This document shows positions 9,820-62,360 of a DNA stretch of 64,000 nucleotides, piece by piece. The stretch spans positions 1 through 64,000 of the IMG/VR virus record IMGVR_UViG_3300032241_000649; one strand, 5' to 3'. Source of the DNA: a virus. A model generated the notes under the pieces. That model was not told the DNA's origin. It did no database searches and worked only from the letters and a program-made list of their open reading frames with translations. Every line of letters begins with the position of its first letter. The first letter of the stretch is position 1. A program made the position numbers and the translations under genes.

Positions 9820-9959
9820 AGTACATGGAAGGGAGACCTTCCAACACTAACTACGTAACAAAAGAGTTGCAACTAGCCCAGCAGACAGACGCAGGGCTAT
9901 TTTTATCCAAGTGACAGTTGGGTAAAGATCCGGGTTGGCTCTCTAGCCTAGGAGATAGT

Positions 9960-10481
9960 GTGTCTATAAATGTTAAGAATCATAAACTAAGGCTTTTCGT
10001 AATAGCCTTTCTAATAATTACAAATTTACTTACCTTCTCAGCCCAAGCCGCTATGGCCCCTATACGGGTCTGCTTAACTCCGCTTGGCAATTATATGAAC
10101 GCTAAGAAGCTAACCCCACATCAGCTCTATGAAGTGCTTCAGTATGTAGGGTTTAAAGGTCATGACCTAAAGGTGGCATGGGCTGTGGCTATGAAGGAAA
10201 CTCACGGCAATCCTCTTGCCCACAACTTTAGCAACAAAACCGGGGATGATTCCTATGGCATGTTCCAGATTAACCTTTACGGGGCTTTAAAGGGCCGTCT
10301 AAGCGACTTTCATCTAAAGTCTGCTAAGGAGTTAATCAACCCGGTTACAAACGCTCAGATAGCCTACAAAATGAGTTCTGGGGGTAAGAACTGGTCCCCT
10401 TGGCATGCTGACCCAGGTGAGCGAGATCACAGGCTTGTTTTAATGTGGATTAATCTATGCCCTTATATGGTTAAGGTTTAG
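9960..10481 (+). CDS. Secreted lytic transglycosylase/lysozyme-like protein
   Basis: GTG start after AGGAG; signal peptide ending AQA; AVAMKET (catalytic Glu), SYGMFQIN, NAQIAY, NWSPW. Confidence 0.82.
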   Translation: MSINVKNHKLRLFVIAFLIITNLLTFSAQAAMAPIRVCLTPLGNYMNAKKLTPHQLYEVLQYVGFKGHDLKVAWAVAMKETHGNPLAHNFSNKTGDDSYGMFQINLYGALKGRLSDFHLKSAKELINPVTNAQIAYKMSSGGKNWSPWHADPGERDHRLVLMWINLCPYMVKV

Positions 10482-19815: not shown

Positions 19816-20211
19816 GTCTACCCTCGCAATCTCTAGCTAGTGATGGAACTACGTATACTTTACCACAGTACTGACATTGATACCTGTCCATGTTCGTATT
19901 CTACTGGCCACTGCCTTAGATGTCTGAGAGTCCCCCGAAATTTTTGCCTCACCATCTCTATGATCATAGAGAGAGCTTTCCCGCCTCCCAATTAGCAAAC
20001 TTGTTGCCTAAGTCACATTTTACTGTTACACGCATATCAAGTGTAGAACTTCTACATTTAGGCCACTGCTTAACCCAAAAATAGCCCACCAGTTTGTAAT
20101 GTCTGCCGATCTCGTGGGTAGCGAGGGGTTTAAGGGTAGGGGGGGTAAAATCATTTGTTACTTAGGTGTAAGCCACGAGGCGCAATCTAGATGAGAGAGT
20201 ATCTCTCCTGC

Positions 20212-20255
20212 TCCCCTACATGGTGCTAGGTGTGGTTCGATTCCACACTAGGGGG
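20212..20255 (+). ncRNA. tRNA-half-like element (acceptor-like stem plus T-arm only)
   Basis: TCCCCTA...GTGTGG-TTCGATT-CCACAC-TAGGGGG; no D or anticodon arm. Confidence 0.45.
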
Positions 20256-20299
20256 CGGGAACTAGGGAAGTGTAGTACCTAGTCCTAGAGAGGGACATC

Positions 20300-20827
20300 A
20301 TGTCCACATTAACAACACTCACCCCTGCTTCTGCCAACCTAGTTGGCGAGATAGTCGGAAAACTCAATAACCGCAAGGCTTGGGTTATTAACGACATCAT
20401 TGCTGTCTACAAGGCAGATAGCAACATTACCCCCGAACATCTTATGGTTGGGGTTAAGGGTACGCTCAACACCGGTGCTGTCTACTCTGCTTGGTATCAT
20501 CACAAGACAGGGATTGACCTCGGTATGCTCAACCTCGCTTGGGTAGGTAAGCGTTATCACCTACTCACAGCAGACTCAACTCTTGGCGCACAGATTACCG
20601 CGCTTAAAGAGGGAGAGGCTGCTGCTGTTCGCGCAGATAATGACGCGAAGATAAACAACGGAACTGCTACTGTCGAGGCTTTCGATAGTGTCGTATCCGC
20701 TTTCGCTTCTGCTGCTAAGGCTCCTGTATCAGGTAACCCAGCAGTAGGCGCAAAGATAGCAGAGATGGAACTCGCTCTTGCTTCACTCAAGGCTAAGTAC
20801 CTTGATGCTGTAGCAGTAGGCGCGTAG
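20300..20827 (+). CDS. Hypothetical protein, first gene of the plus-strand region
   Basis: 175 aa, GAGAGGG RBS, Ala-rich C-terminus. Confidence 0.75.
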   Translation: MSTLTTLTPASANLVGEIVGKLNNRKAWVINDIIAVYKADSNITPEHLMVGVKGTLNTGAVYSAWYHHKTGIDLGMLNLAWVGKRYHLLTADSTLGAQITALKEGEAAAVRADNDAKINNGTATVEAFDSVVSAFASAAKAPVSGNPAVGAKIAEMELALASLKAKYLDAVAVGA

Positions 20828-20975
20828 TCTCCTGCTGGCGTAGTGGAATAGTCGGGGTAACCCCCCGACTATTTCGCTATGTCCGCAAGGGCATAAGGTA
20901 GGAGAGTCTGGCTCAACCCAGCACGCAGGGCTATGGAAGGTGAGTACACCAATCGTTAGCCCGTCCAGCAGGAGA
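20828..20975 (+). ncRNA. Candidate structured RNA module 1
   Basis: 11 bp closing helix TCTCCTGCTGG/CCAGCAGGAGA enclosing a ~19 bp hairpin and smaller stems. Confidence 0.5.
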
Positions 20976-21102
20976 GTACTCTGCTCATCACCAACACAAA
21001 CAATCAGGCCACTGGCTATGTGGCTATACGTCTGTCCAGCCGTAAGACCAAGTCTAGACGGCTATGGTTTGGCTATTATCAGGTATCAACAGGAGGTTAA
21101 TT

Positions 21103-21204
21103 ATGTCTATTCTAGACCCTATGCAATCAGGTCTGCCTATCACCATTCTATGGCTAGGTGGTTCTCTTCTATTCGCCTATGCCATATTTGGAGGCAAGAA
21201 ATGA
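21103..21204 (+). CDS. Small membrane peptide (33 aa, not in track)
   Basis: AGGAGG RBS; MSILDPMQSGLPITILWLGGSLLFAYAIFGGKK. Confidence 0.6.
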   Translation: MSILDPMQSGLPITILWLGGSLLFAYAIFGGKK

Positions 21205-21341
21205 TTATTACCAAGACTACTAAGACCATCAGGCTTACCAAGCCTTGTGGGTGTTCTATCTCTCTATCTATTCATCAGTTGTTTATAGATGGAATACTTC
21301 AGAGTTCCCCCGAAAATGTGAAGGAATTGTCCTATGCATGA
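21201..21341 (+). CDS. Small hypothetical protein (3' part of track ORF 20940..21341)
   Basis: GGAGG RBS and ATGA coupling. Confidence 0.45.
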   Translation: MIITKTTKTIRLTKPCGCSISLSIHQLFIDGILQSSPENVKELSYA

Positions 21342-21558
21342 GATTGAGGACATTGAGGACTTTATTGACCTGAGCAAGGCAACCTATAAATTGCAGTGGT
21401 ATGAGAAAGAGGTCATAGAGTTACGCTTTAGCACAGAGGGCAAAAGACCCATGTCCTTTGAGCAGATAGGTAAGAAAATGGGTATAAGTACAGGCATGGC
21501 TAAGCGTATCTATACAGAGGCTATAGCAGCGCTGGCAGAGTCAATGAAGGAGAAATAA
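21334..21558 (+). CDS. Stand-alone sigma-70 region-4 HTH protein
   Basis: EKEVIELRF...MSFEQIGKKMGISTGMAKRIYTEAIAAL. Confidence 0.75.
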   Translation: MHEIEDIEDFIDLSKATYKLQWYEKEVIELRFSTEGKRPMSFEQIGKKMGISTGMAKRIYTEAIAALAESMKEK

Positions 21559-21560
21559 TA

Positions 21561-21767
21561 ATGGCTAATTGTATCTACTGTGGCAATGAGTTTGCCCAAG
21601 CAAGGCTAGATGCTGGCTATCCATACTGTATGGACAAGACATGTGTCACTAAGGGCATTTCTGGCCGTATGGCTGAGTTCAGGCTTATTCTCATGCCCAA
21701 GCAAGGCTTTACCTATGTCTATAGTGATAGTCCTGATCTATTGAATGGTAAGAGTTCAGGTAGGTAA
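21561..21767 (+). CDS. Small Zn-finger protein (DksA/TraR C4-like spacing)
   Basis: CIYCG...ARLDAGYPYCMDKTC. Confidence 0.55.
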   Translation: MANCIYCGNEFAQARLDAGYPYCMDKTCVTKGISGRMAEFRLILMPKQGFTYVYSDSPDLLNGKSSGR

Positions 21768-21780
21768 GTCCCCCGCGAAA

Positions 21781-21877
21781 TGTGGGCGGTGAAAGATACA
21801 CAGTTGGGCACCCTTCGACCTCTTAGGAGGCAATCAAGTGACTTGTGCATTCCGCTGTGTATCTCTCACTTCCCACA
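21781..21877 (+). ncRNA. Candidate structured RNA module 2
   Basis: Long interrupted helix TGTGGG..GTGA.AGATACACAG / CTGTGTATCT.TCAC..CCCACA. Confidence 0.45.
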
Positions 21878-21907
21878 AGGAAGTAAACCCTCTATGAAAG
21901 GAGAAAC

Positions 21908-22016
21908 AATGCTGTTCGTATTCATTATGGCAGTAGTCATGCTGGTCTTTGCTTATGCCATCATTGACAAGCAGTACAAAATTGAACGCGAGTACATGGA
22001 GTCGGGCAATGAGTAA
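21908..22016 (+). CDS. Small membrane peptide
   Basis: AAAGGAG RBS before MLFVFIMAVVMLVFAYAII; start coordinate approximate. Confidence 0.5.
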
Positions 22017-22350
22017 GGGCCCAACACAAACATTCCTGCAGGTCATAGTTGATTGGCAAGACGCGTCTCTATGCACGCAGACTGACCCCGATTTATTCTT
22101 TGCTGCTGACAATGAGCGTGGACGAGCCAAGAATGAGCGTATAGCTCAGGCTAAGGCTATTTGTAATCAGTGCCCAGTAATACTAAACTGTTTACAACGT
22201 GCTGTATATACCAATGATGCCTATGCAATCATGGGCGGTACAACACCTGAAGAGCGCGGTCATTTAAATGACGGCTCAGGCAAGATGACAACCAGTTGGT
22301 CATTGGAGACCATATTGGCTAACAAGGCGAAGGAGGCAGTAAATGCTTGA
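22009..22350 (+). CDS. whiB: WhiB-family Fe-S transcription factor (1)
   Basis: WQDASLC...DPDLFF...CNQCPVILNC...AIMGGTTPEER. Confidence 0.88.
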   Translation: MSKGPTQTFLQVIVDWQDASLCTQTDPDLFFAADNERGRAKNERIAQAKAICNQCPVILNCLQRAVYTNDAYAIMGGTTPEERGHLNDGSGKMTTSWSLETILANKAKEAVNA

Positions 22351-22489
22351 TGAAAATAGACTACAAGAACTAATGGCTATCTCTGAGCAGATCAATTCAG
22401 TACAGGCTAAGTTGGCTGAGATCTATGCTGAGATACATGTGTATAAGTTAATCGGTGAAATCCTAGAGAAGATTGGAGAGTCCAAGTGA
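22343..22489 (+). CDS. Small coiled-coil protein (not in track)
   Basis: AAGGAGG RBS; MLDENRLQELMAISEQ... Confidence 0.55.
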   Translation: MLDENRLQELMAISEQINSVQAKLAEIYAEIHVYKLIGEILEKIGESK

Positions 22490-22623
22490 GCAAAGCAACA
22501 GAGTTTACAGTTGGCAGTAAATGGGTATCTATTGGTGTAAGCAAGCGATTTGGCATTGGCTTCTACATAGATAGGTATTCTATGGGCATAGACTTTCTAT
22601 GCTTCTGGTTCTGTATTGAATAG
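22486..22623 (+). CDS. Small hydrophobic protein (not in track)
   Basis: GTGA coupling; MSKATEFTVGSKW...FWFCIE. Confidence 0.5.
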   Translation: MSKATEFTVGSKWVSIGVSKRFGIGFYIDRYSMGIDFLCFWFCIE

Positions 22624-22628
22624 TGTTT

Positions 22629-23031
22629 AGTGAGCACGCTCAGTGCCGTTTCCACTGAGCAGGCGGGGAAGTTGAGGGGCTTCCCCGCCATTTCTATGCC
22701 ATGCGATAGGTACATGCTATGTATCTATCGGATTGCATAGCCAATCTAGCGGTAAGACATGGACAACATGTAAGCAGTAAGGAATGACGGTTGCTAAGGC
22801 TTGTAAGGAAATTAACCCGAGAAAAGCTGAACCCCTGATTCGGACCCTTTATTCTCGACAGACTTCGTGGGCTGTCACAATACTGGCTCGCTATTGAGTC
22901 TTAAACAAATGTCTCTATCCGTAACTCACATAGTATGGGGAGTATAAACCATGCAAGCAAGTTGGTTTCTACAGTTCTTCCTTAGGTAAAAGAACTCCTC
23001 ACCTGAGCAGGTGAAGGCTAAACTGCTCACT
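22629..23031 (+). ncRNA. Candidate ~400 nt structured RNA module 3
   Basis: No track ORF; successive hairpins at 22638-22660, 22662-22689, 22704-22730; possible pseudoknot at 22999-23029; ends complementary (AGTGAGCA/TGCTCACT). Confidence 0.5.
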
Positions 23032-23050
23032 CTTAATAGAAAGGATAGAA

Positions 23051-23221
23051 ATGTCACCAACACAAACAACAACAACCACCCTCAACCGAATGATCTTCAT
23101 TGTGGAAGCCCAACTGTTTCATGGGCTAACACGCAAGGAAGCATTAGCCTTAGCGGCTGATGAGATGGACACTCTATACGATCGTGTAGAGACAATAACA
23201 ACCTCCGAAAGGGGCCTATAA
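23051..23221 (+). CDS. Small hypothetical protein (not in track)
   Basis: AGAAAGGA RBS; MSPTQTTTTTLNRMIF... Confidence 0.55.
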   Translation: MSPTQTTTTTLNRMIFIVEAQLFHGLTRKEALALAADEMDTLYDRVETITTSERGL

Positions 23222-23222
23222 A

Positions 23223-23489
23223 ATGGCAAAAGGTAAAGCAACAACACCACAGGTAAATACTGCTGGTGACCGCAAGAATGGCAAGGCACGTAAGAAAAAC
23301 CCCGGCCCTGCTACAACAGAGAAGACCAACTTCACACACGTGAATGGTCGCACAGCTGAAAGCAATGCCAAGCGTGAGGCTTGGAAGGCTGCTGGTGGTC
23401 GTTGGGATCACAAGTCTATCCCTCATTGGAAGACAGGCAAGGTCTACAATCCACAGGCTGTATCACTAGTGGGTAAGTCACTAGTATGA
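23223..23489 (+). CDS. Basic hypothetical protein
   Basis: 88 aa, K/G-rich. Confidence 0.65.
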   Translation: MAKGKATTPQVNTAGDRKNGKARKKNPGPATTEKTNFTHVNGRTAESNAKREAWKAAGGRWDHKSIPHWKTGKVYNPQAVSLVGKSLV

Positions 23490-23758
23490 GCAAGAAGATT
23501 AAGCGTAAGCAACTGATCAAGATGTTGGAGGCTAAGTTAGCTGAGGCTGAGTTAGACCTGCAATACGAAGATCATCAGCACAGTCGTGCATATCACACTG
23601 GATTAATTGACGGACTAGGTGAAGCCCTAGTACTGTTGCGCCCAGAATCACGCCGTCTACCTATCACCATTGCATGGTATCAGGAAGACGAGCCAACACA
23701 AACAATGGCGCTAGAGCGTCAGCGTGAGTATATATTCGAAACTATGGAGGCATCGTGA
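23486..23758 (+). CDS. Hypothetical protein
   Basis: ATGA coupling. Confidence 0.6.
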   Translation: MSKKIKRKQLIKMLEAKLAEAELDLQYEDHQHSRAYHTGLIDGLGEALVLLRPESRRLPITIAWYQEDEPTQTMALERQREYIFETMEAS

Positions 23759-24489
23759 CTTGGAAACTTCATACATACGATTACTGGTCTACCTACTTAG
23801 ATGGTGGTCGTAAAAAATACATGCGCCCACTTTATGAGTATGGAATGGTAATTGAAAAAGCCAACCATTGGCAACCTGCTGGTAGTGACCTACAAATCAA
23901 AGCAAGATGGGCAGCTAACCTACCATTTATTACAGTACACAATGATGATTCATTTACTCTACAAGGTGGCACTGTTAATAGTTTCTGGGGTGGCAACTAC
24001 GACATCATAAAATCACAGGGTATACGCTATCGCATGTGGAAGTACACAGGCATACGCGTATTTCAAAAGAACTATCAAATTAGAGTTCTTGAGTTAGACC
24101 CTGCACGTACACCATCTAAGATACAAGGCTGTCGGCGTTGTGCTCAGACAGGCTTAGTAGATGGTTGGTGTAGTCCACCAACTTGTTATGATGGTAGTAG
24201 AGATGATCAAGGCGTGTTCTCATGTCCTACACATCCAGATGCTACCCAGACTAATGGCTACAGACAATGGCATCAACTTCCATGTTCACACGGAGGTATA
24301 GATGGTCATTCAGTAAAACGCGGTAATACATGCTATTCGTGCAGTGGCACAGGCAAGCGCGAATATGGCAACAATCCGATTTCTTTACCATGGGATGGTT
24401 CCCCTCTTAGGGTAAAGGATAGAAAGATAGTCCCGATAACAACGTCAGGACTAATTAACTTAGAAAGGTTGGTCGCACAATATGCTTGA
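23755..24489 (+). CDS. Cys-rich protein with DnaJ-like CxxCxGxG Zn motif
   Basis: CRRCAQTG...CYSCSGTG. Confidence 0.6.
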   Translation: MTWKLHTYDYWSTYLDGGRKKYMRPLYEYGMVIEKANHWQPAGSDLQIKARWAANLPFITVHNDDSFTLQGGTVNSFWGGNYDIIKSQGIRYRMWKYTGIRVFQKNYQIRVLELDPARTPSKIQGCRRCAQTGLVDGWCSPPTCYDGSRDDQGVFSCPTHPDATQTNGYRQWHQLPCSHGGIDGHSVKRGNTCYSCSGTGKREYGNNPISLPWDGSPLRVKDRKIVPITTSGLINLERLVAQYA

Positions 24490-24991
24490 GGGCTACTCAG
24501 TAAAGTACAACCCAAGTACACTCATCACTGATAAAACAATCATGGGCAGTACTGATCACATTCAGGCTTCCAATGTATTGACTCGTTCTTTAATGCCACA
24601 TACTTTATTGGATGTGACATCTAAGAGCGTTCATTATAGAGATGCTATCATCGCACATATCTCTAACAATGCAGACAATGAGCATAAAGCAAACGCTCTT
24701 AATATCCTAGTTGAAGCAATCCAATCTACACCAGATGGAGACCCAATGCTTCAGGGATACAGCGAGTATGCAGCAGCCATTGCATTGTTACTAGATAGTA
24801 CTGATGTTGCGTCTAAGATAATTGCACGCAATGAACGAAGTAGTGCTAGTAGTTTCTTAACTACTCTTGCTACAGTTATTGCTAGGAAGATTGAGACAGC
24901 CCAATTCAAGGGCATGGTTGAAGCTTCTGGTGCAGCTGCTACACAGCAATGGGTAATGGTTGACCGCCCAACGCTATTCCCAAATGACTAA
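24482..24991 (+). CDS. Hypothetical helical protein
   Basis: 169 aa, AGAAAGG RBS. Confidence 0.65.
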   Translation: MLEGYSVKYNPSTLITDKTIMGSTDHIQASNVLTRSLMPHTLLDVTSKSVHYRDAIIAHISNNADNEHKANALNILVEAIQSTPDGDPMLQGYSEYAAAIALLLDSTDVASKIIARNERSSASSFLTTLATVIARKIETAQFKGMVEASGAAATQQWVMVDRPTLFPND

Positions 24992-25015
24992 CCAACACAA
25001 ACAAACGGGGGGCAT

Positions 25016-25312
25016 ATGTCAGAAGAAATAAAGAAAAGACCAAAGGATACCGCAAACGATATTATCTCTTGTGGTAACTGTGGTCGTCGTATCCAACCTC
25101 ATCAAGCCAGTACCGAGGTGTTTAACACTCGTCACAAAGGCTATGAACATTACCATGAGTCATATCTTGGTTGCTACGAATCAACACGTGAGTCTGGTAA
25201 AAAAGTGGTTCTTAACCGCTACAAGCCATGGCTTCACAACATCTACAACGATCCATCCGAACCTGTTGATGATGGTGCTAAATACACCAACATCATTGAC
25301 AAAATCAAATAG
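25016..25312 (+). CDS. Zn-binding hypothetical protein
   Basis: CGNC...H...C. Confidence 0.55.
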   Translation: MSEEIKKRPKDTANDIISCGNCGRRIQPHQASTEVFNTRHKGYEHYHESYLGCYESTRESGKKVVLNRYKPWLHNIYNDPSEPVDDGAKYTNIIDKIK

Positions 25313-25315
25313 ATA

Positions 25316-25481
25316 ATGTTAGGCTGGCTAAGCCAACCGCGAGCATACTTCATGTACACCTAGACCCTAGTACCCAATTAAACCAGCCACAGAGGAACAG
25401 TTCTGTGCGACGTAGGTTGAGGCAACAGTGATGGTAAGCCCTGCAGTCCCTGTAAGCACTGGAGGTAAGCCAGCCTAATAT
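25316..25481 (+). ncRNA. Candidate structured RNA module 4
   Basis: 14 bp closing helix ATGTTAGGCTGGCT/AGCCAGCCTAATAT with internal stems. Confidence 0.5.
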
Positions 25482-25746: not shown

Positions 25747-27132
25747 ATGGAGATAGCAATCTTCACCGAATCATATGAGCCCTCTATGGGAGCACATCGC
25801 CGTCAGGTATTGATGGCTCCTCATGATGGTGGAGTACGTGTCTATTCACGCAAAACTGATGGCACTAAAGGTCATGGTAGCGCGTGGGTTGAGACTGATC
25901 TTGAAGAGTTGGTCACTGAGATCAACCCTAACGAACAGTTGACACGCACACCAAGTGGTGTGTACGTTACACCCTTAGATGAAAAAGCAATAACAACCAA
26001 AGGATATTCCCCAGTGTTGTGCACTAAAGCGTGCTCAGCACATGCTAAGGCTGGTCCTAATACAGAAACAAAAACACTCGTGGAAACTATCTACGATGTG
26101 TACACACGCATACTAGGAGGAGATGACACCTTGGATACATATGTCAAAGACAATCGCTCAGCAACTAGCAGTACTGTCCCGTTGATAGTACAGCCAGTGC
26201 ATGAGCTTCCAACACAAACAACCGCCCAGCCAGCATTCAACGTATCGTTGGCCACAGTGCCTCCAATGAAGTTGGCTGAACGTTATGTACATCGTAAGGT
26301 CTACGGAGTTGAAGACTTCAAAACATTCGATACAGCACGTGCTAAAGGCATCAACGTTCTTATCTACGGTCCAACAGGTCCCGGTAAGACTACAGCAGTC
26401 GAAGCATGGGCTGCTGAACGCAATCTACGCATGGCTACAGTATCTGGTAACGCGTCTATGGAATCCCGCCAGTTATTCGGTGGCTTCATTCCTGATGGCA
26501 ATGGTGGCTATGGATGGATTGACGGTCCTGTCACAGACGTAGTTCGTAATGGTGGTGTTTTACTCCTAGACGAGTTCAACTTCATCAGTCCTAAGATCTA
26601 CACAACACTCTATCCATTGACTGACGGTCGTCGTACGATCACATTGCTAGATCACATGGGCGAGACAATCGTTGCTCACCCTGACCTAACAATCTTCGCT
26701 ACTATGAATCCTGATTACATTGGTACTACACCGCTTAACTTTGCTATGCGTAACCGCTTTGACATTCAACTGTCATGGGATTACGATGACGCAGTGGAAT
26801 CAAAGCTAATCTCATCCAAGTCTTTGCTACTAATCGCTAAGCAATTGCGTGCGGAAGCAGCCAAGGGTCAGTATGAGACTCCAATCTCAACTAACATGCT
26901 CATTGAAATTGCTGACTTCATCAATGATGATGATCTTGGCTATGAGTTTGCTATTGAGAACTTCATCGCTCACTTCAGTGCAGACGAGCAGCCATCTGTT
27001 CGTTTGGTATTCCAAACACACGAACACAATATCAAGCAGGACTTCGGTATGGAAGTTGAAATTGAGCTTGAGAAAGACGCTGACGTGTCACCTGAAGATC
27101 TAATGAACAAATGGTTAACCAACACAAACTAA
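25747..27132 (+). CDS. MoxR/CbbQ/CobS-type AAA+ ATPase with N-terminal extension
   Basis: GPTGPGKT, LLLDEFN, ATMNP...Y.GT..LN.A..NRF. Confidence 0.88.
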   Translation: MEIAIFTESYEPSMGAHRRQVLMAPHDGGVRVYSRKTDGTKGHGSAWVETDLEELVTEINPNEQLTRTPSGVYVTPLDEKAITTKGYSPVLCTKACSAHAKAGPNTETKTLVETIYDVYTRILGGDDTLDTYVKDNRSATSSTVPLIVQPVHELPTQTTAQPAFNVSLATVPPMKLAERYVHRKVYGVEDFKTFDTARAKGINVLIYGPTGPGKTTAVEAWAAERNLRMATVSGNASMESRQLFGGFIPDGNGGYGWIDGPVTDVVRNGGVLLLDEFNFISPKIYTTLYPLTDGRRTITLLDHMGETIVAHPDLTIFATMNPDYIGTTPLNFAMRNRFDIQLSWDYDDAVESKLISSKSLLLIAKQLRAEAAKGQYETPISTNMLIEIADFINDDDLGYEFAIENFIAHFSADEQPSVRLVFQTHEHNIKQDFGMEVEIELEKDADVSPEDLMNKWLTNTN

Positions 27133-27141
27133 GGGGGTAAC

Positions 27142-29001
27142 ATGTTTCAAGATGAGTTAGATGAATCGTACTACGCACAAGAACGAACTGAGGAGATACA
27201 GGTTAGATCTGTTCGACTCAATGCGCTCTGTCGTGTATATGAACAAGCAGACCGTGTTCTCACTGGTGATCCAGTGGTAGTAAATGTAGCAAATGACGGC
27301 CCCGCACCAGCGTGGTCCGACGGTGCAAGCATTACTATCAATGCCAGTCAGATAGGTGACATGGACTTAGAGTCATTGACTCAGGTCAATGGCCTGAACT
27401 ATCATGAGCTTGCCCATCACTTATATACTCCAAGACGAGGCACAGACCTTGTCAAATGGGTTATAGAAAATAACTACATGCAGACGTTCAATATGCTGGA
27501 GGATCAGCGTATCGAGACTTTGCTTGTAGCACGCTATCCATCTATTGCTCCATATCTAACAGCTACGTGTGCTCGTTGGCTTGCTGCATCTCCTGATGAA
27601 ATGCAAAGCAACTATGTACTCATGCGTGGTCGTAGGTATCTGCCTGTGGAATTGCGTCAAGCATTCCGTGATATGTTCAACAATAAAGAACTTATCCCAG
27701 CAATCATTGACATCGTAGATCAGTATCGTCTCTTAGCATTCCCCAAAGATTATGCTAAGGCTCGTGAACTAATCAAACGGTTCAATGATGAAGTGCTACC
27801 AAACATGCCAAAAATTCCACAAGGTGGCAATGGATGTACTAATCGTGATCCAGTAACCAAAGGTCGTCCTGAGCCAGGCAAGGCACAGGAACGTGACGCA
27901 CAGCGTGCTAATGGTATGGGCAAAGCAGAATCTGAATGGACTCCACGTAAATCTATTGAGGAGCAAACAGAAGATGCGCCCAACACAAACCCAACTGAAA
28001 ACATAACTCAAGTTATGTCAACAGAGGAGCAACTAGAGGCTCGTCAGCAATCACAACAATCTAACACAGCTGGATTAGCTGCTGGTGATGGTCACATTGC
28101 TAGTGCTGGTGGATTGCCAAACAACATCAATGACATGCTTGATAACGTCATACAGTCTGTACTAGAACGTAAAGATGTACAGCAGGACGTTAAAATCAAG
28201 CAGAAAGTAATCATTGGTGGTGATGGCAAGCATGAGGATACATTGCGTACGGGTAAGTTTGACAAAACCCCTGTACCATCTGAAGCCATGGCTAACTTTC
28301 GTAAGTTTGCTAAGGAACTAGAACGCTTGCGTGATGAGTGTGAGCCAATGTGGCATCGTGAGGAAGCGTCTGGCCGTCTCAATGTACAACGTGCATTGCG
28401 TGGCTGTGAAATTGACGAAGCCTTTGACCGCTGGGATGAAGGTAACGATGGTGCTGATATCGAAGCGGTAATCATGGTTGATCGGTCAGGCTCTATGAAT
28501 TCTGGTAAAAATGACATGCACGCTTCTATCGCTAGCTGGACTATCAAACGTGCACTAGAAAGCATCGGCGCCCCGGTGACTGTGTATGCGTTTGATGACC
28601 AAGCTGAACTAGCCTATGCTCGTACTGAACTGGCTAGCAAGACTCAATACAAATTCATCTATGGTAATGGTGGTACAAATCCGTACTCTACATTGCTAGC
28701 AGCTGAGCAGTTATTGATGTCCTCTCGTAAGAAAAATAAGATGCTGTTCATGATTACTGACGGCGCGTTTGATGCCCGCAGGAATGATGAAATTATCGCC
28801 CGCATTCAAAAGCGTGGCGTGCTAACTGCAATGACTCTTATCATGCAGGAAAGTGATCTAGAGTACTACACAGAACGTGGTACAAAACTAGAAGAGTTCC
28901 GTCATGGTATGGAAATCTTTGCTCGTATCAATTCAGCACGTGACTTGGTTCCATTTGCCAAGTCTGTAGTAGCCGGCGCTATCAAGAAGCGTGGGCGTTA
29001 A
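27142..29001 (+). CDS. VWA-domain protein with N-terminal HExxH metallopeptidase-like region (CobT/NorD-like partner)
   Basis: HELAH...LEDQRIE; MIDAS DRSGSM, GGT, ITDG. Confidence 0.85.
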   Translation: MFQDELDESYYAQERTEEIQVRSVRLNALCRVYEQADRVLTGDPVVVNVANDGPAPAWSDGASITINASQIGDMDLESLTQVNGLNYHELAHHLYTPRRGTDLVKWVIENNYMQTFNMLEDQRIETLLVARYPSIAPYLTATCARWLAASPDEMQSNYVLMRGRRYLPVELRQAFRDMFNNKELIPAIIDIVDQYRLLAFPKDYAKARELIKRFNDEVLPNMPKIPQGGNGCTNRDPVTKGRPEPGKAQERDAQRANGMGKAESEWTPRKSIEEQTEDAPNTNPTENITQVMSTEEQLEARQQSQQSNTAGLAAGDGHIASAGGLPNNINDMLDNVIQSVLERKDVQQDVKIKQKVIIGGDGKHEDTLRTGKFDKTPVPSEAMANFRKFAKELERLRDECEPMWHREEASGRLNVQRALRGCEIDEAFDRWDEGNDGADIEAVIMVDRSGSMNSGKNDMHASIASWTIKRALESIGAPVTVYAFDDQAELAYARTELASKTQYKFIYGNGGTNPYSTLLAAEQLLMSSRKKNKMLFMITDGAFDARRNDEIIARIQKRGVLTAMTLIMQESDLEYYTERGTKLEEFRHGMEIFARINSARDLVPFAKSVVAGAIKKRGR

Positions 29002-29026
29002 TCCAACACAAACAAAGGAGAGCAAA

Positions 29027-30596: not shown

Positions 30597-30824
30597 ATGC
30601 AACTCAATATAAAGACCAAGGAGATAAAGAAGCTGGTTAGCGCGTTAGAGCAAGCCGGCTTACAAGTTTCCATAACTAATGGGAAACACCATGTTAAAGT
30701 GGTTAACCCAAGAACTAGGAATACTGTGTTCTTCGGGGCTCAGTCTCTAGGAGATCGCAGAACTGGTAAGAATATCCTACGAGATCTAAAGCACGTAGGA
30801 TTCAACAAGAATATAAAGCTCTAG
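30597..30824 (+). CDS. HicA-like (dsRBD-fold) protein
   Basis: KEIKKLVSALEQAGLQV...GKHHVKV...ILRDLKHVG. Confidence 0.6.
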   Translation: MQLNIKTKEIKKLVSALEQAGLQVSITNGKHHVKVVNPRTRNTVFFGAQSLGDRRTGKNILRDLKHVGFNKNIKL

Positions 30825-30833
30825 GAGGGCAAT

Positions 30834-31127
30834 ATGGCTACAACAGTAAAACAAACACTGACCGCAAAATTAACCAAGAACACATCTGTAGAAAAGGGTG
30901 GGGCTTGGTTACTTCACATCTGTATCCAAACTGAGGGAGCAAGTGAATGTGTAATGGATACGCACTCAGCTTGGTCTAACCCATCTGCAGCTAAGCGCTT
31001 CTTGAAGCAAGTAGTGCTTGAGAACACTCCACGTAAGTCCATCAAGATGGAGACTAAAGCTACCAATGACTTGGGTAAGCCAACTCATCTAGCAGGTGAG
31101 CTCAACTATAAGTGGGGTATTGCATAA
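30834..31127 (+). CDS. Hypothetical protein
   Basis: GGGAGGG RBS. Confidence 0.6.
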   Translation: MATTVKQTLTAKLTKNTSVEKGGAWLLHICIQTEGASECVMDTHSAWSNPSAAKRFLKQVVLENTPRKSIKMETKATNDLGKPTHLAGELNYKWGIA

Positions 31128-31639: not shown

Positions 31640-31686
31640 AAAGCAAAGGCCCCCGGCTCTTAATTGAGTCGGGGGCCATTTGTTTG
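31640..31686. terminator. Bidirectional terminator between convergent regions
   Basis: GGCCCCCGGCTC-TTAATT-GAGTCGGGGGCC with T-rich flanks on both strands. Confidence 0.8.
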
Positions 31687-31699
31687 TGTTGGCCGTTTT

Positions 31700-62075: not shown

Positions 62076-62360
62076 TTAGCGTATGTCAACCCTTCTTGGC
62101 AAATCCTGAATATCTCTACGCGTAGCACCCGCAAAAATTTGGTCTACAAGAAGAGAAACAGTAAGTCCTATAAAAGTTGAAGCACAGGCATAGACCAGCA
62201 AGTACAACCATTTGACTTCTAGATTTATAAGTGCTAAGGTTGCCAACACAAACGCAAGTAACCCCCGCCATTTTCCTAATGGAATGAGGAGGCTATCTAC
62301 GGCTGTTAGTATAAATGCAGTTGCTAGTGACGCTATAAGTATTATGCCCATACTTGCCAT
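62076..62360 (-). CDS. Small membrane protein
   Basis: Three hydrophobic segments. Confidence 0.6.
   Translation of the reverse strand: MASMGIILIASLATAFILTAVDSLLIPLGKWRGLLAFVLATLALINLEVKWLYLLVYACASTFIGLTVSLLVDQIFAGATRRDIQDLPRRVDIR

What the first reader, a model, noticed from the sequence alone, without database searches (positions are those of the whole stretch)
20160..25481. Integrated hypothesis: an RNA-structured early transcription unit
Seen: the stretch carrying the periodic 11-mer also starts with a tRNA-half-like element and has four intergenic modules (20828-20975, 21781-21877, 22629-23031, 25316-25481), each closed by a long-range helix. The 11-mer follows within ~15-30 nt of modules 1 and 3. 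The minus-strand operons have tight gene couplings and only simple hairpins. Established: T7 early mRNA is cut by RNase III at intergenic hairpins. Inference: a long early transcript that is processed into mRNAs and stable ncRNAs and handled by a motif-binding factor. This may be an undescribed actinophage regulatory system.
Basis: inference. Interest (0 to 1): 0.8.

Follow-up and report, generated by a model that had tools for sequence, protein, structure and literature searches.

The report
Structured RNAs and periodic 13-mer in actinophage operon

Summary

**The phage.** The window is part of an 88.7-kb, apparently lytic myovirus. It carries a WhiB gene and belongs to a family of at least 45 IMG/VR contigs.

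**The motif.** The "11-mer" is really CCAACACAAACAA.
- It is invariant across relatives down to about 31% protein identity.
- It is almost always on the sense strand.
- It is quasi-periodic at about 1.0–1.3 kb (P≈2e-5).
- In complete relatives it is confined to this operon.
- 29% of copies start 1–3 nt after a stop codon, against 0.6% by chance.
- Copies inside genes sit in hypervariable protein linkers.

**The RNA modules.**
- Module 3a (about 300 nt), the module 4 closing helix and a 70-nt pseudoknot (3b) show strong compensatory covariation. None matches Rfam.
- Modules 1 and 2 and the leader have partial homologues.
- The "tRNA half" is a covarying hairpin whose T-loop sequence is not conserved.
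- The closing helix of module 3 is not conserved.
- Terminator-like hairpins inside modules 1 and 3 argue against one simple long transcript.

**Mechanism.** No RNA data exist. My best reading (about 45%) is that these are RNA-level cis elements, with the 13-mer recognised as single-stranded RNA. A conserved HicA-like protein in the same operon is a speculative candidate factor. The closest analogues are mycobacteriophage stoperators, start-associated sequences (SAS) and Pleft ncRNAs.

The parts
20100..20299 (+). Conserved structured leader upstream of the first + strand gene. An outer stem (20207-20218 with 20249-20259) encloses the 'T-arm-like' hairpin (20230-20248).
   Evidence: Conserved in 7 relatives. 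10 of 20 predicted pairs have compensatory changes. The loop is TTCGAnn in only 4 of 8 sequences. No tRNA by ARAGORN or Rfam.
20828..20975 (+). Module 1: multi-hairpin element closed by a 12-bp helix. It contains a GC-rich hairpin and a CUAUGUCC...GGGCAUA hairpin.
   Evidence: Fold z -8.1. The inner hairpins are conserved after the g1 homologue in L010, L012, L014, L015 and L016. The outer helix is not conserved.
20991..21003 (+). 13-mer copy 1 (CCAACACAAACAA), 15 nt after module 1.
21781..21877 (+). Module 2: long imperfect hairpin. Its arms are GGTGAAAGATACAyAG and CTrTGTATCTCTCACT, with a conserved A.C mismatch.
   Evidence: z -3.5. The arms are conserved with a variable interior in L010, L012, L014 and L016, at differing positions.
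22021..22033 (+). 13-mer copy 2, at codons 5-8 of the WhiB gene (ATG 22009).
22660..22690 (+). GC-rich hairpin followed by a U-rich tract (terminator-like) at the 5' side of module 3.
   Evidence: helices 1-2; the U tract is longer in relatives
22693..22954 (+). Module 3a core: conserved structured RNA with helices H3-H7 and invariant loops ACUUCGUGGG and GGAGUAUAAA.
   Evidence: 59 pairs, 94.8% paired against 34-46% in slid controls. 37 compensatory pairs against 5-9. 0 of 500 shuffles reach the observed values. No Rfam hit.
22960..23030 (+). Module 3b: about 70-nt hairpin plus H-type pseudoknot upstream of g10, with about 60 invariant positions.
   Evidence: All variable helix positions are compensated (3 pairs plus 1 wobble) and 100% are paired. 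One copy per genome in three of the five records searched; it abuts the motif in G412.
23057..23069 (+). 13-mer copy 3, at codons 3-6 of g10 (MSPTQT).
23693..23705 (+). 13-mer copy 4, inside g12 (EPTQT linker).
24992..25004 (+). 13-mer copy 5. It starts 1 nt after the stop of g14, 24 nt before the ATG of g15.
25316..25481 (+). Module 4: multi-branched element closed by a 14-bp helix. It ends about 18 nt before the SD and ATG of g16.
   Evidence: The helix has 10 of 14 pairs compensatory and is 96.9% paired. 0 of 500 shuffles reach the observed values. No Rfam hit.
26209..26221 (+). 13-mer copy 6, inside the AAA_5 gene in a hypervariable linker (PTQT conserved).
27119..27131 (+). 13-mer copy 7. 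The 11-mer ends at the stop codon of the AAA_5 gene. Specific to this genome.
27980..27992 (+). 13-mer copy 8, inside the VWA (CobT-like) gene in a low-complexity linker, in a different reading frame.
29003..29015 (+). 13-mer copy 9, 2 nt after the VWA stop and 24 nt before the next ATG.
30597..30824 (+). HicA-like 75-aa protein, a speculative candidate for the motif-recognising factor.
   Evidence: Pfam HicA_toxin E 7.7e-4, below the cut-off. The model is alpha-beta-beta-beta-alpha with pLDDT 81. HicA structures score Z 4.6-5.3 and TM 0.53-0.58. It is conserved in all 37 loci found and at 32% identity in distant G408.
31648..31692 (.). Bidirectional terminator hairpin (31648-31677) plus the single reverse-strand 13-mer copy (31682-31692, - strand) that closes the operon.
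   Evidence: A reverse copy at this position is conserved in 18 of 20 loci and 33 of 37 loci.

Best explanation
**What is shown.**
- Window 20.1–31.7 kb is the non-structural, early-type + strand operon of an apparently lytic actinophage (a myovirus).
- Its transcript carries a set of conserved cis-acting RNA structures. These are a structured leader, modules 1 and 2, the roughly 300-nt module 3a, the pseudoknot 3b in front of g10, and module 4 in front of g16.
- It also carries an invariant, unstructured A/C-only 13-mer on the sense strand about every 1–1.3 kb.

**What I infer.**
- The 13-mer is read as single-stranded RNA by a sequence-specific factor. This factor marks cistron boundaries, and also the interior of long genes, for cleavage, decay or translational control.
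- The stable structures that often sit immediately 5' of a copy act as protective ends or as regulatory 5'-UTR elements.
- Because of this, the operon would be expressed as several processed segments rather than as one uniform mRNA.
- A conserved HicA-like small protein encoded at the end of the same operon is a candidate for the factor.
For: **Structures are real and fold on the + strand.**
- Module 3a: 37 of 59 pairs are compensatory and 94.8% are paired, against at most 46% in slid controls.
- Module 4 helix: 10 of 14 pairs are compensatory.
- Module 3b pseudoknot: fully compensated.
- There are many G-U pairs and few A-C mismatches.

**Motif properties.**
- It is invariant in 133 unique instances and has no −10 or −35 partner.
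- It is on the sense strand in 13 of 15 copies in G000, 16 of 16 in G412, and all copies in G003 and G004.
- All copies in two complete 100-kb relatives lie in this operon.
- 200 forward copies lie upstream of the HicA-like gene in 37 loci, and none lies beyond the reverse copy.
- 29% start 1–3 nt after a stop codon, against 0.6% at random.
- Coding copies occur in two reading frames, inside hypervariable linkers.
- Recurrent arrangements are hairpin or module → motif → SD–ATG, and stop → motif → terminator, including in a distant relative.
- A 13-mer with no G or T cannot base-pair within the RNA. This fits recognition of a single strand (inference).
- The spacing is more regular than chance.

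**HicA-like candidate.**
Against: - No RNA data exist for this phage, so no transcript end, cleavage or factor binding is shown.
- Sense orientation and intergenic placement are equally expected for a DNA-level, orientation-dependent roadblock such as the L5 stoperators.
- The support for HicA is weak. The Pfam score is below the cut-off, Foldseek gives E 0.2, and the Z scores tie with frataxins. No HicB-like partner was recognised.
- Co-occurrence of HicA with the motif lies within one phage family, so it is not independent evidence.
- Two copies in this genome (62243 and 70509) are antisense to the local genes.
- Cleavage inside the AAA and VWA genes would destroy their mRNAs, which would need a regulatory rationale.
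Confidence: 0.45

Rival explanations
1. DNA-level, stoperator-like sites. A phage protein binds the asymmetric 13-bp site as a monomer and blocks or modulates RNA polymerase in an orientation-dependent way. This would, for example, shut off the early operon at the switch to middle and late genes.
For: The sites are an asymmetric 13-mer, are co-oriented with transcription and are mostly at gene boundaries, like L5 stoperators (PMC9283540, PMC5712189). The motif is confined to one operon. Extra copies inside long genes would give denser blocking.
Against: No integrase was found in 5 genomes, 4 of them complete, so a lysogenic immunity repressor is unlikely. No copy is seen overlapping a recognisable promoter. 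An A/C-only strand composition is unexplained for a duplex site. The only HTH-like protein in the operon (Sigma70_r4, 21334-21558) is absent from relatives. Copies placed between a stop codon and a terminator would be redundant for a roadblock.
Confidence: 0.25
2. One reading: one long early transcript is cut by host RNase III (or RNase P/Z at the tRNA-like element) at the long-range closing helices. This would release stable ncRNAs and mature mRNAs, as with T7 early mRNA.
For: The closing helices of modules 4 and 2 are conserved or covarying. The module 2 helix keeps a conserved A.C mismatch, reminiscent of the internal loops in T7 RNase III sites (my own knowledge). Modules often precede a new cistron.
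Against: The helices are 12-16 bp, shorter than typical RNase III substrates of about 20 bp (my own knowledge). The closing helices of modules 1 and 3 are not conserved. Terminator-like hairpins inside modules 1 and 3 suggest several transcription units or attenuation. The T-loop is not conserved and no tRNA model matches. This reading does not explain the 13-mer.
Confidence: 0.15
3. The 13-mer is a promoter or initiator element for a phage-modified host RNA polymerase, analogous to the roughly 1-kb-spaced class II promoters of T7 or to T4 late promoters.
For: The copies are co-oriented, about 1 kb apart, lie upstream of many genes and include intragenic copies. A downstream T-depleted region could be the start region. 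WhiB- and sigma-like regulators are in the operon.
Against: No phage RNA polymerase was detected. There is no conserved -10-like partner. Copies lying directly between a stop codon and a terminator make no sense for a promoter. Copies sit at codons 2-8 of genes. The sigma-r4 protein is absent from relatives.
Confidence: 0.07
4. The 13-mer is a DNA-metabolism site: a site-specific nick as in T5, phiKMV or tf phages, a lagging-strand priming site, or a recombination or Chi-like word.
For: The copies are strand-specific, with regular spacing of about 1.1 kb on the Okazaki-fragment scale. The complementary strand is G/T-rich like Chi words, and the sense strand reads ACAC like T7/T4-type primers (my own knowledge).
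Against: The motif is confined to about 10% of the genome in complete relatives. Orientation follows gene direction, including isolated copies elsewhere. The word is at chance level in 401 Actinomycetota genomes, like the reversed control, so it is not a host-genome word in those sampled. That tally includes two unpublished genomes, G125 and G053, but does not rest on them. The stop-codon adjacency is unexplained.
Confidence: 0.06

Closest known systems
Stoperators of Cluster A mycobacteriophages (L5 gp71 repressor sites)
   Same: An asymmetric 13-mer in many copies. The sites are mostly at gene boundaries, their orientation is tied to the direction of transcription, they occur in actinophages, and they neighbour an early region that makes abundant ncRNA (PMC9283540, PMC5712189).
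   Different: Here the word is A/C-only and unrelated in sequence. In complete relatives it is confined to one operon rather than spread over the genome, and it is quasi-periodic. Copies are embedded in protein linkers. The phages show no integrase, no copy is seen at a promoter, and binding by a repressor is untested.
Start-associated sequences (SAS/ESAS) of Cluster K mycobacteriophages
   Same: A 13-bp asymmetric repeat found only among non-structural genes, in one orientation plus a single reverse copy, at cistron junctions, with unknown function and a possible RNA-level role (PMC3203893).
   Different: SAS contains the Shine-Dalgarno core and lies 3–7 nt before the start codon. This word has no G and lies upstream of the SD, 22–47 nt before the ATG. 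It is anchored to the preceding stop codon or hairpin, and it also occurs inside genes and before terminators.
T7 early-mRNA RNase III processing sites
   Same: Intercistronic RNA structures in an early polycistronic region of a lytic phage.
   Different: The structures here are multi-branched modules of 100–300 nt with conserved loops and a pseudoknot, not simple irregular hairpins. Their closing helices are short. Cleavage is untested. An extra linear motif is present.
Abundant small non-coding early RNAs from Pleft of L5/D29-like phages
   Same: A long non-coding stretch in an actinophage early region that is likely to give stable RNA (PMC5712189).
   Different: There is no sequence relation. 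Here there is covariation evidence for defined structures but no expression data; in L5/D29 there is expression data but no defined structure.
HicA mRNA interferases (type II toxin)
   Same: The 75-aa protein at 30597–30824 has the alpha-beta-beta-beta-alpha topology, a GKHH motif at the start of strand 2, a weak Pfam HicA match and its best full-length structural matches to HicA chains.
   Different: The scores are below family thresholds. No HicB-like antitoxin was recognised next to it. Nuclease activity and any link to the 13-mer are inferred only.

Membership tests
Cluster A stoperator system | Asymmetric site of about 13 bp in many copies, with orientation correlated to transcription | tested here: met
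   133 unique invariant instances. Sense orientation in nearly all copies.
Cluster A stoperator system | Sites distributed across the whole genome, including an operator overlapping the early lytic promoter | tested here: not met
   In complete relatives all copies lie in one operon of about 10 kb. No copy has a conserved promoter partner.
Cluster A stoperator system | Temperate phage whose immunity repressor binds the sites | tested here: inconclusive
   No tyrosine or serine integrase in 5 genomes. No repressor was identified. Binding is not testable with these tools.
Cluster K start-associated sequence (SAS) | 13-bp asymmetric repeat restricted to non-structural genes, in one orientation with rare reverse copies | tested here: met
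Cluster K start-associated sequence (SAS) | Contains the SD core and lies 3-7 nt upstream of the start codon | tested here: not met
   The word has no G. The SD lies between the word and the ATG. The distance to the ATG is 22-47 nt. 54% of copies are inside ORFs by crude ORF calls.
tRNA / tRNA-like element (for 20160-20260) | Recognised by tRNA models | tested here: not met
   ARAGORN finds 0 genes. There is no Rfam tRNA or tmRNA match even at E<5.
tRNA / tRNA-like element (for 20160-20260) | Conserved T-loop sequence in homologues | tested here: not met
   TTCGAnn in 4 of 8 sequences. The others have UUCG-type or other loops on a covarying stem.
Any Rfam 15 RNA family (modules 1-4, leader) | Covariance-model match at the gathering score | tested here: not met
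   No match in the whole window at the gathering score. Only chance-level hits at E up to 10 on modules 3 and 4.
RNase III processing site (T7-type) | Double-stranded stem of about two helical turns that is cut by RNase III | not testable with these tools
   The helices are 12-16 bp. There are no RNA-end data.
HicA toxin family (protein 30597-30824) | Pfam PF07927 match above the gathering score | tested here: not met
   20 bits against a cut-off of 27, E 7.7e-4.
HicA toxin family (protein 30597-30824) | dsRBD-like alpha-beta-beta-beta-alpha fold resembling solved HicA structures | tested here: inconclusive
   4p78 gives TM 0.53-0.58 and Z 5.3. 6g26, 5yrz and 1whz give Z 4.6-5.0. These tie with frataxins, and Foldseek gives E 0.2.
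HicA toxin family (protein 30597-30824) | Adjacent HicB antitoxin | tested here: inconclusive
   The conserved downstream 97-aa protein has a confident model, but no HicB or any other clear match in Foldseek pdb.

The most novel reading that the evidence does not exclude
A lineage of uncultured freshwater actinophages runs its early operon by a post-transcriptional programme of a new type. A phage-encoded, sequence-specific HicA-like endoribonuclease (or another ssRNA-binding factor) recognises an invariant A/C-only 13-mer. This word is placed every ~1.1 kb, even in protein linkers. The factor cuts or marks the transcript next to protective structured RNAs. At least one of these, module 3a (~300 nt, with invariant loops), would be a new large functional ncRNA class, and module 3b would be a new pseudoknot riboregulator.
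Probability: 0.12. Interest if true: 0.8.

Novelty: new variant of a known kind. Interest (0 to 1): 0.6.

Why it matters
Repeated oriented 13-mers in actinophages have been known for decades, yet the function of SAS remains unknown (PMC3203893). This family offers an unusually clean case:
- The word is invariant across deep divergence.
- Its A/C-only composition points to single-strand recognition.
- Its spacing is measurably regular.
- Selection has forced it into hypervariable protein linkers.

The locus also adds at least three covariation-supported RNA structures that are absent from Rfam, all from phages of abundant but hard-to-culture freshwater Actinomycetota. If the RNA-level reading holds, it would be a new way for a lytic phage to time or partition early gene expression. 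It would also give a short, portable RNA tag with a matching factor.

Tried and rejected
- **Expression data.** No RNA holder is listed. Only one DNA run, the probable source, holds the stretch, and only as contigs.
- **Closest phage records.** Megablast against the phage collection gave no match.
- **g1 protein.** It has no relatives in IMG/VR.
- **14-mer scan of IMG/VR.** Most hits were chance matches or Pro/Thr-repeat coding regions such as L034, L045, L078 and L079.
- **Pattern scan for module 3a (GCTAAG...ACTTCGTGGG).** It was swamped by an unrelated 80-nt element in prophages and added no new family members.
- **Pairing of the 13-mer with 16S rRNA.** The best run was 6–7 bp, no better than for shuffled words, in two actinobacterial 16S genes. 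Rejected.
- **Host-genome word (Chi or uptake sequence).** The word is at chance level in 401 Actinomycetota genomes. Rejected for the genomes sampled.
- **Complement of the motif inside the ncRNA modules (guide-RNA idea).** No reverse-complement copies exist except the one at the terminator.
- **Sigma70_r4 protein (21334–21558) as the factor.** It is absent from relatives.
- **attP or tRNA-fragment reading of the T-arm-like hairpin.** No integrase and no tRNA match were found.
- **Repeated promoter box TTTAAGGGTAGGGG.** It is unique in the window. The sigma-70 consensus scan is not above chance.
- **Cultured relative ChisanaKitsune.** It lacks the word. It has its own SD-containing 12-mer.
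- **HicB test on the 97-aa neighbour.** No match.
- **Profile search of the HicA-like protein against PDB sequences.** No HicA hit.

Full report
**Context**

The window is bases 1–64000 of an 88,722-bp IMG/VR virus record with CheckV completeness of 91%. GC content is about 44%.

Pfam finds these functions:
- SPP1-type portal and large terminase
- tail sheath and baseplate J
- family A DNA polymerase, DnaB-like helicase and SNF2 helicase
- class II ribonucleotide reductase

This makes it a myovirus. Nearly all genes are on the − strand. The main exception is a + strand block from about 20.3 to 31.6 kb. It contains:
- many small genes
- a WhiB gene (22009–22350, E 5.5e-19)
- a Sigma70_r4-only protein (21334–21558, E 6e-10)
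- an AAA_5/VWA (CobS/CobT-like) pair
- a pyrimidine-dimer glycosylase

Evidence on host and lifestyle:
- The nearest cellular WhiB homologues are all Actinomycetota.
- The nearest cultured CobT-like genes are in Gordonia and Brevibacterium phages of 85–91 kb, at 27–29% identity.
- No tyrosine or serine integrase and no T7-type RNA polymerase were detected in this genome or in four complete relatives.
- "Actinophage" is therefore supported, and the phage is probably lytic.

**The 11-mer**

Counts and extent:
- The exact CCAACACAAAC occurs 15 times in the genome. The reversed control word occurs 0 times.
- Nine copies lie on the + strand between 20991 and 29003.
- The AAA_5 protein recovered 20 related loci at 66–83% identity. 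Every one carries 3–10 exact forward copies. 18 of 20 carry one reverse copy at the convergent end of the operon.
- A second sweep with the HicA-like protein gave 37 loci. These hold 200 forward copies upstream, one reverse copy 0.6–1.3 kb downstream in 33 of the 37 loci, and none beyond it.
- Over 133 unique instances the conserved word is CCAACACAAACAA. It is followed by a T-depleted stretch and has no −10- or −35-like partner.

Distribution across genomes:
- In two complete 100-kb relatives every copy lies in this operon.
- In another complete relative, 11 copies are spaced at a mean of 1159 nt.
- Spacing is far more regular than random: window CV 0.19, P≈2e-5; G412 P<1e-5.
- The motif also occurs in a distant complete phage, G408 (VWA 31% identity), as 7 dispersed copies. 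Five of these are intergenic.

Placement is not random:
- 29% of unique copies begin 1–3 nt after a stop codon, against 0.6% for random positions. A Shine-Dalgarno sequence and the next start codon typically follow 22–47 nt later.
- Other copies sit at codons 2–8 of genes, such as g10 (MSPTQT) and WhiB (MSKGPTQT).
- Some copies directly follow a stable hairpin or module: module 3a in ten relatives, 3b in G412, and two hairpins in G408.
- Some copies lie between a stop codon and an intrinsic terminator: 31682(−) here, plus G412, L037 and G408.
- The copies inside the AAA_5, VWA and g12 genes lie in linkers that vary in length and sequence, where only the residues encoded by the word are kept. 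They use two different reading frames. Selection is therefore acting on the nucleic acid.
- Orientation is sense in 13 of 15 copies here and in all copies of G003, G004 and G412.

Ideas tested and excluded:
- The word is not enriched in 401 sampled Actinomycetota genomes. Two of those genomes, G125 and G053, are unpublished; the tally includes them but does not depend on them.
- It has no special complementarity to 16S rRNA.
- It has no complementary partner in the phage ncRNAs.

**The RNA modules**

Rfam 15 gives nothing at gathering thresholds for the whole window. Relaxed thresholds give only chance-level hits.

*Module 3* is composite:
- The 5' part holds a GC-rich hairpin followed by a U-rich tract, which is longer in relatives. 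It looks like an intrinsic terminator (22660–22690).
- Module 3a (about 22693–22954) follows. On 12 sequences, 59 pairs are 94.8% paired, against 34–46% when partners are slid. 37 pairs show compensatory double changes, against 5–9 in the slid controls. None of 500 shuffles reaches the observed values.
- Two loops of 3a are invariant (ACUUCGUGGG and GGAGUAUAAA). G-U pairs abound while A-C mismatches are rare, so the + strand is the folded one.
- The core of 3a is detectable in at least 17 of 20 loci.
- Module 3b (22960–23030) has about 60 invariant positions. It forms a hairpin plus an H-type pseudoknot in which every variable helix position is compensated. A covariance model finds one copy per genome in three of the five records searched.
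- In relatives, 3a and 3b are separated by a copy of the 13-mer and an ORF of about 500 nt.

*Module 4* (25316–25481) is closed by a 14-bp helix. Ten of its pairs show compensatory changes across 14 sequences. Its interior varies between subgroups. It ends shortly before the SD of g16.

*Module 2* has helix arms conserved in sequence, including an A·C mismatch, in four relatives. The interiors are unrelated and the genomic positions differ.

*Module 1* has inner hairpins (a GC-rich hairpin, then CUAUGUCC…GGGCAUA) that recur after the g1 homologue in five relatives. Its outer helix does not recur.

*The leader* (20100–20299) is conserved in seven relatives. The "T-arm" is a covarying hairpin nested in a conserved stem. 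Its loop is T-loop-like in only half of the sequences, and no tRNA model matches.

Relatives have further strongly folding gaps at equivalent places. Long non-coding gaps are concentrated at 20–25.5 kb in this genome.

**Mechanism**

What is shown:
- a set of conserved + strand structures
- an invariant, sense-oriented, operon-specific, quasi-periodic word

What is inferred is the level at which the word acts. I favour RNA (about 45%) for these reasons:
- The composition is A/C-only.
- The word is anchored to stop codons and to the 3' side of hairpins.
- Copies occur in 3' UTRs just before terminators.

A DNA-level stoperator-like roadblock is the main rival (about 25%). Promoter and DNA-metabolism readings fit less well.

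The candidate factor was found by looking for + operon proteins shared with distant G408:
- The shared proteins are AAA_5, VWA, WhiB, the glycosylase, a 45-aa protein and a 75-aa protein at 30597–30824.
- The 75-aa protein is 57–84% identical across the 37 loci.
- It has a weak Pfam HicA match.
- Its confident model has alpha-beta-beta-beta-alpha topology.
- Its best full-length structural matches are HicA toxins, but at modest scores.
- Its conserved 97-aa neighbour is not recognisably HicB.
- This is a lead, not a finding.

**Comparison and novelty**

The closest known systems are:
- L5-type stoperators (PMC9283540)
- Cluster K start-associated sequences, which share the restriction to non-structural genes and the single reverse copy (PMC3203893)
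- the abundant Pleft ncRNAs of L5 and D29 (PMC5712189)

The present word fails defining features of both repeat classes: genome-wide spread with an operator for stoperators, and SD content with 3–7 nt spacing for SAS. The RNAs match no curated family. A full-text search for the word found only unrelated papers. I rate it a new variant of a known kind, of moderate to high interest.

Noticed in passing
window 30597-31127: A conserved gene pair at the end of the + operon. It consists of a HicA-like 75-aa protein and a 97-aa protein. The 97-aa protein has a confident all-beta-plus-helix model with no clear structural match. The two genes are adjacent in 19 related loci.
   Followed up: partly
window 62190-62260: An antisense-oriented copy of the 13-mer sits in a minus-operon intergenic gap. 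A good sigma-70-like promoter (TTGACT-17 nt-TAAGGT) ends 2 nt upstream of it and reads the + strand. This may give a small antisense or divergent transcript that starts at the motif.
   Followed up: no
window 9841-9851: A one-mismatch copy (CCAACACTAAC) lies in the leader of the lone + strand gene 9918-10481.
   Followed up: no
window 21781-21877; L010:4430-4560, L012:2765-2930, L014:4715-4830, L016:4745-4860: The module 2 helix arms are conserved in sequence around unrelated interiors and sit at different genomic positions in relatives. This suggests a mobile or modular hairpin cassette.
   Followed up: partly
L078, L079, L034, L045 (other IMG/VR contigs): The same 11-mer occurs many times in unrelated phage contigs, inside Pro/Thr-rich repeat coding regions (PTQT repeats). 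This is a source of false positives when searching for the word.
   Followed up: partly
L278 (Gordonia phage ChisanaKitsune MZ820089.1, record 55.6-63.9 kb): A cultured distant relative has its own start-associated 12-mer, GAAAGGAACGCG, about 13 nt before five gene starts around its AAA/CobT genes. It also has a non-coding divergent gap of about 1.1 kb upstream.
   Followed up: no
G000 62362-66168 (- strand; partly in window): A 1268-aa ORF with no Pfam match lies upstream of the baseplate and tail genes.
   Followed up: no
window 22662-22700 and 20850-20900: Modules 3 and 1 share the same two-part start: a GC-rich hairpin (GGCGGGG...CCCCGCC type) followed by a hairpin beginning (U)CUAUG. This hints at a repeated terminator-plus-hairpin unit.
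   Followed up: partly
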